NCBI GenBank assembly: GCA_965226555.1
Contig: CBDDDG010000010.1
Coordinates: 256,001 to 320,000, forward strand
Origin: Salinispira sp.
GTDB taxonomy: Bacteria; Spirochaetota; Spirochaetia; DSM-27196; Salinispiraceae
DNA: 64,000 nt
Direction of reading: 5' to 3'
Positions 18,001-21,000 of the stretch are shown here, piece after piece. A program made the position numbers. Within the stretch, counting starts at the first letter, position 1, and each line of letters starts with the position of its first letter.

Positions 18001-21000
18001 CTGAAATGTGGTAATTATTTTAAATAACCGGCTGTCTGAAGACAATCAGACAACCATGAAGTGTATCAGCCTCTCTCCCATCCACAAACCTGTCCTGCCA
18101 ATATGCTCAGAAAGGGCATGTCGATAGATTTTATTCCCTGAAGTATTTTTTGCGCAGCGCATGCTGCCGAAGGGCTCGCAGGAGGCGGGCGGACGATTCA
18201 GGGCGGAAACCCCGTTCGATGTTCAGACTGCTTATTGCGCTCACCATACGCCAGTGCCGCAGCAGATGAACCCACGCAGTGAAAAGGTCAAGTTCGTATA
18301 TGTGGGCAGGCTCACTGTTTACCCCGTTAATTTCAATAATGCGAAATTCGCCCCGCTCCAGCGCGCGGATGTTTCGGGTTTTTACATCGAAACGTCCAAG
18401 ATAAAACTCGGGGATGCAGTCTGCGAGCGGAGCAAAGACCTTGAGCAGAGCCGGACTGATAAGGTGATTCCCGTTTCTGAAAGTTACCCCGCGGGCATGA
18501 TTCCCTATGTCCATGAGTACGCGTTCCTCTCCGGCGCTGAGAATTTCATGCAGATTGAATCTGTGCAGCTTTTCAAGCCGCCGCCGATGATAGCGAGCGC
18601 GGGCGCCCCGGCGGATGAGCTGCGCGAGGGTGCTCACGCCATCTCCCTGGACACTCAGGGGCTCCTTGATAACCAGAGAAGTTATGCGCGGCTCGCCCGA
18701 AACCGGATTCTTCACGACCATGACTCCGTACTCCTCTCCGCCGCTGATATTTTCCTGCAGGATAATTGCAGGCCCCATAGAAAATTGCAGAGGAGATTGC
18801 AGAGAAGATTTCATGCCGGCTGCCTCATGGTATGCGCGCAGATAGCGCAGAACTTCGCTTCGCCCATGCACGCGCTCTACTCCCATACCGCGTTCGCCCA
18901 TGTCCGGCTTGAGAAACACAGGATATGCCAGCCCGAGTTTTTTCATAATACCTTCGATTTCATCTGCGCCGCTTCCCGATCCCGAGTTTCCCGAGCCCGA
19001 ACCGGGAAGTTCCTTAAAATAGTGGGTCTTCGGGAGGTAGCGGGCTGGAATTCCCTCAAACATTGCCGACTTGGAATATTCTAGGAGCCCTCCGAAACGA
19101 AGCCCGGGATTCGCGCTGAGAAAATGAAGAAGCGATCCTTTTCTGAGTCCCTGCGCAATAAGCCAGACGGCAACGGGCAGGTACATAATCCAGGAAGGCC
19201 AGAATTCCCATTTCAGTATTTTCGGGAGAATCATAGGGGCGCCGCTGGTCGGGTGCTGTCGCGGCGGTGGCGCCGCTGTCGGGTGCTGTCGCTGACGGGC
19301 GCCGCTGGCGGGAGTGCTCGCCTGTTTGAGGGCGTAAACTCTGCGGCGTATTTCCGCGTTGATGTCTGCGTTGATTGACGCGCTATTCCGAATAGTGTTT
19401 CCGGCATTATCGCTGGCGCATAGTTCGGCAGCGGGGATCGGTGTACCAATTCGAATTTCCAGCGTCTGCCCCTGTTTACGGAACATTTCATCGACCAGAA
19501 AGAGCATCTCGACATTGAATGGAATTCTGAACCAGCGGCGCAGGTTGGCGATGGTATAAAAACGCCGGCTGTTTTCTCCGAAGAAACGGCACGGGACGAT
19601 GGGCCGGCTGTTTTCCCGACAAAGGCGCACATAGGACTTGTTCCAGGGGAGATCTTGCACACGTCCGCCTATCCGGCGGCTGCATTTTCCAGCCGGAAAG
19701 TGGAGTATGGCAGCGTTGCCGCTGAACAGTTCCCGGTATCGTTCCCCATGCCGATAATTGCTCATTCCGCCGTCCATCTCCTTACTCACGGGGAGAAAGA
19801 GCTCCTCCATCTGATGTATATTCATAAGAAGATCATTGACCATGAGCCTGACTTCACTGAAATAGGTGAAAAGCAGAAAGATGAGCGCAAGACCATCCAG
19901 CCCCCCAAGGGGATGATTGGAGATTAAAACCGGGCGCTCAAGCCCCGCCAGATGCTCCGTTCCATGCGCGCGCAGCCTCACATCAAAATAATTCAGGGCA
20001 GCGCGCACAAAGTCCGCGCCCCGCAACTGCCCAAACTCCCGGAGGGCAGCATTAATTTCACGCTGATGAATAAGTGACGCAAGATATCGCAGGATAAAAT
20101 TGGGCAGCCGTAGCTCTGCCGTAATTTCCCTGACATCAATCATTCGGGAAATACTGTTCCGCCAACTCCACGAGAGCTGATTCATCGGCACTGCGGGTGA
20201 GCACATGATCTGCGATTGCCTTGAGTTCATCGCGGGCATTTGCCACGGCAACACCGAGACCGGCAGTTGTAAGCATTTCAATATCGTTATTGCTGTCGCC
20301 GAAGGCAATGCAGTTTTCAATAGGAATGTTGATATGCCGGGCGAGCATTGTAAGGGCTGTTCCCTTATTCACTCCCGAGGCGACAACTTCAAGGTACATT
20401 GGTTTGGAAAAGAACATATCGAACTTTCCCTGAGCAATGGGCGCCAGCGCCTTCTGTAATGTACAGAGCTTTTCATGCTCTCCGATAATAAGAAGCTTAA
20501 TACTCCCGTTCGGAAGAGCAGATGGTATGTCATCAACATAGGCCCAATTCATATCGGTGCTGCTCACATAATAATCAATCCATTTCTGCTGGGTACTATC
20601 GCGCCGTTCCACAATGAAGCCCTCGCTCCGGTATGCCTGAACATGAAGGTTCGCGGCACGGGTCTGCGTGAGAATTTCAGCAATAAGCTCCTGACTGAGT
20701 ACCTGCTCAAAAATAATGGTATTGCTGCCGGCGGTGCTTACTCTGCCTCCATTGTAGGAAATAAGATATTCATTGTCGCTGCCATTATTATTGGGGGGGA
20801 TGATGCGGGAAGCGACAGCGCGCAGACTTGATGTTGCCCTGCCGCTGCTGAAAACAATCGTGATACCCCTGTCGTATAGTTCCTGCAAAGTTTTTTGCGT
20901 TGCCGCCGGAAGTGTTCCGTCCAGCGCCAGCAAGGTGTCATCGACATCTGTTGCAAGAAGCCTGTACATATCAGAATTGTCCTCCGCCAATGTTTATTGT

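What a model noticed while it worked through the whole genome (the two positions that open the first line are those of the whole stretch)
18131..20185. GlsA fused to an ATP-grasp ligase: candidate enzyme for dipeptide amino-lipid head groups
g00785 joins a lyso-glycine-lipid O-acyltransferase (GlsA) through a short repeat linker to an orphan ATP-grasp domain that in relatives is the next gene after glsA. The ATP-grasp enzyme ligates a second amino acid, such as serine, onto glycine lipid to give flavolipin-type dipeptide lipids. New if true: the missing ligase of dipeptide amino-lipids, and such host-signalling lipids in a sponge spirochaete.
Evidence so far: Residues 13-260 hit GlsA NF053697 at 237.9 bits (cut 260); 409-572 hit ATP-grasp models weakly. 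A GlsB-like N-acyltransferase is present (g01626, 37%, call 132). The ATP-grasp is in 6 of 45 other order genomes and in all 6 lies within 50 bp behind glsA on the same strand, in 4 families (coordinates of calls 137 and 138). Longer homologs fuse it to DedA/SNARE_assoc and alpha/beta hydrolase domains (23 of 24 rows, call 135), again lipid-linked. Searches 129 and 136 and passages of PMC11631085 named no enzyme for the serine step.
(Added by a program. Inside this text positions count along the whole contig: contig position 256,001 is position 1 of the stretch shown here. "Call 12" and the like, gene names such as g00115 and contig names such as C1 are that model's own, and its searches are not shown. 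The text may have been shortened before it was handed on; [...] marks where a part breaks off. The agent that wrote the report below was given it as the finding of a first reader that could run no searches.)

Follow-up and report, generated by a model that had tools for sequence, protein, structure and literature searches.

The report
Membrane-lipid ligase fused to acyltransferase
A spirochaete gene joins a likely amino-lipid acyltransferase to an unstudied ATP-using enzyme that probably adds a small amine to amino-acid membrane lipids; it is unlikely to be the missing serine-adding enzyme of gut Bacteroides, whose order mostly lacks it.

Summary
The 684-residue frame is real: a GlsA-like O-acyltransferase, a repeat linker and an orphan ATP-grasp enzyme. 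The fusion is private and recent: the nearest relative (96% and 88% identical) has two proteins, and no second fusion was found. The gene pair is conserved: all 8 other carriers among 98 order genomes have glsA coupled to the ATP-grasp gene, 4 with glsB next, but these form one clade. A separate clade sits behind olsB/olsA-like genes (13 of 13 loci). The family's commonest neighbours are a DinB protein and a TANGO2-like hydrolase, which in 9 spirochaetes is itself fused to GlsA. The flavolipin claim fails its main test: of 301 Bacteroidales genomes 279 have GlsB, 9 have this family. Best reading (0.45): an ATP-dependent amide ligase that tailors amino-lipid head groups with an unknown amine, within an undescribed DinB/TANGO2 module. 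Rivals: it makes the N-acyl amide itself, or a soluble conjugate. This scan noted the same module earlier on other DNA.

The parts
18131..20185 (-). Fused gene, 684 aa (start may be the second Met at 20143, giving 670 aa)
   Evidence: the nearest relative aligns from Met1; the database call is 670 aa
19406..20149 (-). GlsA-like lyso-amino-lipid O-acyltransferase domain, residues 13-260
   Evidence: NF053697 237.9 bits, cut-off 260; PF19576 185 bits
19895..19915 (-). His91...Asp97 acyltransferase motif (NHPLGGLDG), intact
   Evidence: His and acidic residue kept in 32 of 32 GlsA/OlsF rows; positions; catalytic role recalled
19235..19321 (-). Linker, residues 289-317, 79% G+C, three imperfect 24-nt repeats spaced 30 and 29 nt; no other copy in the genome
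19231..19234 (-). ATGA: Met318, the start of the free-standing ATP-grasp protein in the nearest relative, overlapped by a TGA that is now out of frame
19091..19234 (-). Aromatic-rich family-specific N-terminal segment (WEFWP...ANPG), predicted membrane-contact region, not a clear transmembrane helix
   Evidence: conserved in alignment A1; no 19-residue window above hydropathy 1.5; role inferred
18134..19234 (-). Orphan ATP-grasp domain, residues 318-684, with Lys426, Glu485, Arg598, Asp600, Glu618, Asn620 invariant in 83 homologs
   Evidence: profile matches cyanophycin-synthetase-type structures at E 6e-9 to 5e-7
20136..20990 (-). Upstream Cof-type HAD phosphatase, overlapping the start; not a conserved neighbour in relatives

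Best explanation
The gene encodes a GlsA-like acyltransferase fused to an ATP-grasp enzyme that likely uses ATP to join a small, still unknown amine to the free carboxyl group of an amino-acid membrane lipid. Steps: (1) the GlsB-like enzyme on contig C15 likely N-acylates an amino acid, probably glycine (inferred from homology under the cut-off); (2) the GlsA domain likely adds the second fatty acid (inferred); (3) the ATP-grasp domain would phosphorylate the head-group carboxylate and form an amide with serine, taurine or another amine (chemistry from the fold; substrate inferred from gene context only); (4) the TANGO2-like cysteine hydrolase and the DinB protein, encoded elsewhere in this genome, would remove or exchange the group (inferred, weakest step). 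The fusion arose recently, likely by slippage in a repeat tail at a stop-start overlap, and is probably not needed for function.
For: glsA and the ATP-grasp gene are translationally coupled in 8 of 8 other carriers, with glsB next in 4 of 8. A second clade, separated by three well-supported branches, follows an olsB-like/olsA-like pair in 13 of 13 loci examined. The partners link the same way: DinB is within 6 kb in 41 and TANGO2 in 29 of 75 non-spirochaete loci; TANGO2 is fused to the ATP-grasp in 5 of 28 long homologs and to GlsA in 9 of 99 order genomes (8 read; 1 from coordinates); all 24 order genomes with the DinB gene have a glsA-like gene, against 61 of 99 overall. Membrane fusions: VTT/DedA in 24 of 24 and 19 of 28. 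Precedent: taurine transfer to the ornithine-lipid carboxyl is ATP-dependent and its gene unknown (PMC12971839). TANGO2 is proposed to be a cysteine Ntn hydrolase for fatty-acid derivatives (PMC13044924); its Cys2 is invariant in 27 neighbours.
Against: No substrate or product is shown. glsA or glsB lay within 6 kb in 0 of 75 non-spirochaete loci. Carriers exist with no recognisable N-acyltransferase: 10 of 10 Bacteroidota carriers without a GlsB/OlsF hit also lacked an OlsB hit (controls silent there, though the model rang), and 5 of 5 of them lacked OlsF with controls ringing. G024 (95% complete) has glsA and the ligase but no GlsB or OlsB. 52 of 61 order genomes with glsA lack the ligase. 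The synthase-linked cases are only two independent events. No structure model could be made.
Confidence: 0.45

Rival explanations
1. The ATP-grasp enzyme makes the N-acyl amide itself: it activates a free (3-hydroxy) fatty acid as acyl phosphate and joins it to an amino acid, feeding GlsA in place of, or beside, GlsB; TANGO2 would hydrolyse the same bond, giving a salvage cycle.
For: The fusion mirrors OlsF (O-acyltransferase first, amide-forming domain second). G024 and G096 have glsA and the ligase but no GlsB hit. Carriers without any known N-acyltransferase exist. Precedent: an ATP-grasp enzyme makes acyl-histidine through acyl phosphate (stated in PMC11631085).
Against: In 4 of 8 spirochaete operons and 13 of 13 olsBA loci a complete N- and O-acyltransferase pair is already adjacent; this genome has its own GlsB-like gene. 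The closest structures are peptide-extending ligases.
Confidence: 0.2
2. The DinB, TANGO2 and ATP-grasp module makes and exports a small soluble conjugate (peptide, thiol or other stress metabolite); its place beside lipid genes reflects shared regulation.
For: Most loci have no lipid synthase nearby (0 of 75); no co-occurrence with GlsB/OlsF in Bacteroidota (p 0.70); LysE-type exporter beside it in 8 of 80 loci and fused once; YHS (seleno)protein and thioredoxin-like neighbours; DinB keeps three invariant His.
Against: Does not explain two separate recruitments beside different synthase pairs, insertion between glsA and glsB, or TANGO2 fused to GlsA.
Confidence: 0.22
3. It is the serine ligase that turns glycine lipid into flavolipin in Bacteroidales generally.
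For: The serine step is open: the gene 'remains to be identified' (PMC12746155; also 10.1101/371807). The chemistry fits, and the adjacent glsA genes score high against the Bacteroidales model (9 of the top 15).
Against: 9 of 301 Bacteroidales genomes hold it, 279 hold GlsB over the cut-off. Five of the best GlsB scorers give only short matches at E 6e-7 or worse. 31 of 151 genomes in the family of a record named Dokdonia. Genomes in these samples are unnamed, so named producers were not checked one by one.
Confidence: 0.04
4. The fused protein is an accident that impairs one or both halves in this strain.
For: Singleton fusion through a repeat tract.
Against: Both halves keep all invariant residues and are 96% and 88% identical to the unfused relative.
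Confidence: 0.09

Closest known systems
GlsB/GlsA glycine-lipid pathway of Bacteroides (Lynch et al., 10.1101/371807)
   Same: GlsA-like domain with intact motif; GlsB-like gene in the genome; order glsA then glsB kept in relatives.
   Different: Both score under the family cut-offs; an ATP-grasp gene is inserted or fused; glsB is on another contig here; no glycine lipid is described from spirochaetes (PMC12971839, PMC12746155).
OlsF bifunctional ornithine-lipid synthase
   Same: N-terminal O-acyltransferase of the same family followed by an amide-forming domain.
   Different: The second domain is ATP-grasp, not GNAT; 153 bits against a cut-off of 620; the fusion is not conserved.
Cerilipin: ATP-dependent taurine transfer to ornithine lipid (Gluconobacter cerinus)
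   Same: The reaction type proposed here: ATP-dependent amide on the head-group carboxyl.
   Different: Its gene is unknown; presence of this family in Gluconobacter was not tested.
Cyanophycin synthetase / GshAB-type ATP-grasp ligases (PDB 7ta5, 8fxh, 7lg5)
   Same: Best structural matches by profile, including the inserted lid region and the E-x-N motif.
   Different: Match covers about 190 of 342 positions at E 6e-9; own N-terminal aromatic segment; no Mur-ligase domain; far under every family cut-off.
D-alanine--D-alanine ligase (the label that databases give several homologs)
   Same: ATP-grasp fold.
   Different: 5 of 83 homologs touch TIGR01205, best E 0.002: the label is unsupported.

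Membership tests
GlsA (NF053697) | Score over the curated cut-off of 260 bits | tested here: not met
   237.9 bits; best of all families, OlsF next at 153
GlsA (NF053697) | His/Asp acyltransferase motif | tested here: met
   NHPLGGLDG, His91 and Asp97
GlsA (NF053697) | glsB directly downstream | tested here: not met
   GlsB-like gene on contig C15; adjacent behind the ligase in 4 of 8 relatives
GlsA (NF053697) | O-acylates lyso-glycine lipid | not testable with these tools
   needs assay
ATP-grasp superfamily | Profile similarity to solved ATP-grasp ligases and kept ATP/Mg residues | tested here: met
   RimK model hit by 50 of 83 homologs
ATP-grasp superfamily | Fold shown by a structure model | not testable with these tools
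Serine ligase of flavolipin (unidentified) | Present across Bacteroidales that carry glsB | tested here: not met
   9 against 279 of 301
Serine ligase of flavolipin (unidentified) | Present in named producers (B. thetaiotaomicron, B. dorei, P. gingivalis, F. johnsoniae) | tested here: inconclusive
D-alanine--D-alanine ligase | Score over TIGR01205 or PF07478 cut-off along the domain | tested here: not met
OlsF | C-terminal GNAT N-acyltransferase domain | tested here: not met

The most novel reading that the evidence does not exclude
The ATP-grasp enzyme, the TANGO2-like hydrolase and the DinB protein are an undescribed, multi-phylum system that writes and erases amide groups on amino-acid membrane lipids; the ligase is the first gene for ATP-dependent head-group extension (serine- or taurine-type), and bacterial TANGO2 is an N-acyl-amide hydrolase or transferase, which gives a direct substrate clue for the human disease protein.
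Probability: 0.3. Interest if true: 0.85.

Novelty: new variant of a known kind. Interest (0 to 1): 0.55.

Why it matters
No gene is known for any ATP-dependent extension of an amino-lipid head group, neither serine (PMC12746155) nor taurine (PMC12971839). This family (1,633 clusters at 50% identity with E up to 1e-30) is a concrete candidate class, mislabelled as D-Ala-D-Ala ligase. The spirochaete operons give a small testable unit (glsA, ligase, glsB), and the cultured Salinispira pacifica encodes both halves (P0015, P0298) and has a major unidentified aminolipid (PMC4511686). The TANGO2::GlsA fusions tie a protein of unknown function, mutated in a human disorder, to amino lipids.

Tried and rejected
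Assembly error as cause of the fusion: contigs of three runs agree over the linker; one sample, so not independent. No RNA holder listed. Search for a second GlsA::ATP-grasp fusion: none in 25 longer hits, 28 long hits picked from the best 150, or metagenome contigs (3 distant loci, not examined further). Linker as a dispersed repeat: no other copy in the genome. Promoter and terminator scans: no more than in shuffles. Thiohistidine-dipeptide ATP-grasp clusters (PMC13674229, first fifth read): no link found; an EgtD-like gene is near 4 of 80 loci and an EgtB-like fragment near one more, not followed. The DinB profile matched no solved structure. Cluster look-up could not be made. The test of one clade for the two synthase-linked groups did not finish. 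PMC5546091 was not held. Papers: searches named no enzyme for the serine step and no paper on this family or on the DinB/TANGO2/ATP-grasp cluster; the library lacks most subscription journals. No complex prediction was run, since no binding is claimed.

Full report
Observation. Window 18131-20185 (-) is a 684-aa frame. The first 260 residues match GlsA (NF053697, 237.9 bits, cut-off 260) and keep the His91/Asp97 motif. Residues 318-684 belong to an orphan ATP-grasp family: 607 near-length homologs, 1,633 clusters at E up to 1e-30, best structural matches among cyanophycin-synthetase-type ligases, Lys426, Arg598, Asp600, Glu618 and Asn620 invariant in 83 sequences. It is the only copy in the genome. 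Contigs from three runs of one sample agree with the window across the linker.

The fusion is recent and private. The nearest homologs are two proteins labelled Salinispira sp., each from a 4,401-base contig: GlsA P0294 (96%, 352 aa, ending in a repetitive tail) and ligase P0003 (88%, beginning at our Met318). At Met318 the DNA reads ATGA, with the TGA out of frame, and the linker repeats are spaced 30 and 29 nt. I infer that slippage in the tail moved glsA into the frame of the next gene; the relative's DNA was not seen. No other GlsA fusion appeared in 25 longer hits or in the 28 long proteins I picked from the best 150.

The gene pair is conserved in the order. Of 99 genomes, 61 have a glsA-like gene, 55 a glsB-like gene and 9 the ligase. 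In all 8 others the ligase follows glsA as a separate gene with overlapping or abutting stop and start. In 4 (G021, G023, G085, G090) a GlsB-like gene comes next (280-296 bits for three, 257 for one); in the other 4 a DinB/TANGO2 pair lies within about 3 kb on the opposite strand. The spirochaete ligases form one clade among Bacteroidota sequences (SH-aLRT 99 in a quick tree of 124 rows; 83/63 in a careful tree of 41 rows), so the nine cases count as about one event.

The wider family. Among 80 named loci, the 75 non-spirochaete ones had glsA or glsB within up to 6 kb in 0, DinB in 41 and TANGO2/NRDE in 29 (many contigs are shorter than the flank). In 19 loci from the family of G405, DinB was within 1.5 kb in 17 and TANGO2 in 14. 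In the window's phylum the ligase is in 48 of 53 genomes of one family (f27, probably Leptospiraceae, my guess) and 1 of the other 247. Fusion partners are VTT/DedA, alpha/beta hydrolase, TANGO2 and LysE. This genome holds the other members elsewhere: DinB and TANGO2 behind lgt at C10:58.0-59.4 kb, YHS on C11, glsB on C15.

Two further links to amino lipids. First, TANGO2 is fused to GlsA in 9 order genomes (8 read, confirmed by Pfam for one; G061 from a shared 539-aa frame), in five as DinB, TANGO2::GlsA, glsB, without the ligase; these GlsA domains are one clade. All 24 genomes with the DinB gene have glsA (kin are not independent). Second, of 20 regions fetched around other carriers, all 13 taken at Bacteroidota carriers with 810-865-aa frames show an olsB-like and an olsA-like gene just upstream (VTT confirmed in the 4 scanned); the other 7 show no such neighbour among the genes scanned. 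These 13 share synteny and are one more event, well apart from the glsA-linked clade.

The flavolipin test. The serine step is indeed open: PMC12746155 (passages) says the gene remains to be identified, finds glsAB in over 96% of Bacteroidales and found no candidate among six peptide-bond Pfam families in B. dorei; 10.1101/371807 (passages) and PMC10056535 (passages) agree. In one sample of 301 genomes from the order of Labilibaculum filiforme, 279 have GlsB over the cut-off and 9 have this family, four of them as DedA fusions (for two). Five top GlsB scorers gave only short generic matches. In 201 Bacteroidota genomes, 48 have the ligase, 49 a GlsB/OlsF-type gene, 13 both (expected 11.7). The family therefore cannot be the general serine ligase.

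Evidence against my own reading. Ten Bacteroidota carriers without GlsB/OlsF also had no OlsB match (where controls were silent; the model did ring in two f27 genomes), and five of them had no OlsF match with controls ringing. Rhodocytophaga aerolata had no match to GlsA, PF13444, PF19576 or OlsB. The first look of this tool can miss genes, but these blanks are many. They fit either a ligase that makes the N-acyl amide itself, for which the review PMC11631085 gives the acyl-histidine precedent (passages), or a soluble product.

Mechanism. ATP-grasp enzymes phosphorylate a carboxylate and hand it to an amine (established knowledge). The free carboxyl of an acyloxyacyl amino lipid is the simplest acceptor for an enzyme recruited twice beside complete synthase pairs and often fused to membrane domains. 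PMC12971839 (section 10 and passages) records such a reaction, ATP-dependent taurine transfer, with no gene. PMC13044924 (passages) proposes TANGO2 as a cysteine Ntn hydrolase for fatty-acid derivatives, substrate unknown. PMC8433624 (passages) describes Gly-Ser-Orn lipids, so further extensions exist. PMC4511686 (passages) reports a major unidentified aminolipid in S. pacifica, whose proteins P0015 and P0298 are the two halves. Supplements were not read; dataset S5 of PMC12971839 and table S16 of PMC12746155 may bear on distribution.

Verdict. Observation confirmed; interpretation partly supported. The interesting object is the undescribed amino-lipid-linked module, which eight earlier unchecked notes of this scan describe on other DNA; the glsAB link and the TANGO2::GlsA fusions are what this locus adds. 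Interest 0.55; new variant of a known kind.

Noticed in passing
L128, L130-L136 (G058-G066, G080, G081): TANGO2/NRDE fused to GlsA in 9 order genomes, often as DinB, TANGO2::GlsA, glsB; a direct lipid clue for TANGO2.
   Followed up: partly
L125-L128, L142, L144: A NIPA/EamA-type membrane transporter lies between glsA and glsB (G068, G069, G071), before glsB (G066), or after DinB-TANGO2 (G090, probably G085).
   Followed up: partly
window 8703-12287, 13897-17898, 27092-30744: Near-duplicate large lipoprotein-like proteins with many fibronectin-III-like repeats; two end in a domain that looks like a family-18 glycoside hydrolase plus PA14 (recalled motifs, not scanned).
   Followed up: no
window 12840-13765: Short overlapping frames between the two large duplicates look like a broken glycoside-hydrolase-type gene.
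   Followed up: no
window 24703-26316, 27092-27150, 18960-19010: Short tandem expansions inside proteins (DDALFG, NTTQH, GSGSG) suggest frequent repeat slippage in this lineage.
   Followed up: partly
G000 C7:5657-9166 and C10:58778-62396: The lgt-DinB block with its upstream lipoprotein gene occurs twice in the assembly (6.7% contamination is on record), once at a contig end.
   Followed up: no
L165-L193 (family f27): The ligase is near-universal in this family (48 of 53), with DinB within 1.5 kb in 17 of 29 loci.
   Followed up: partly
window 20971-26974: ABC transporter with two permeases, a LolA-like protein and an outer-membrane protein directly upstream on the same strand; not conserved beside the pair in relatives.
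   Followed up: partly
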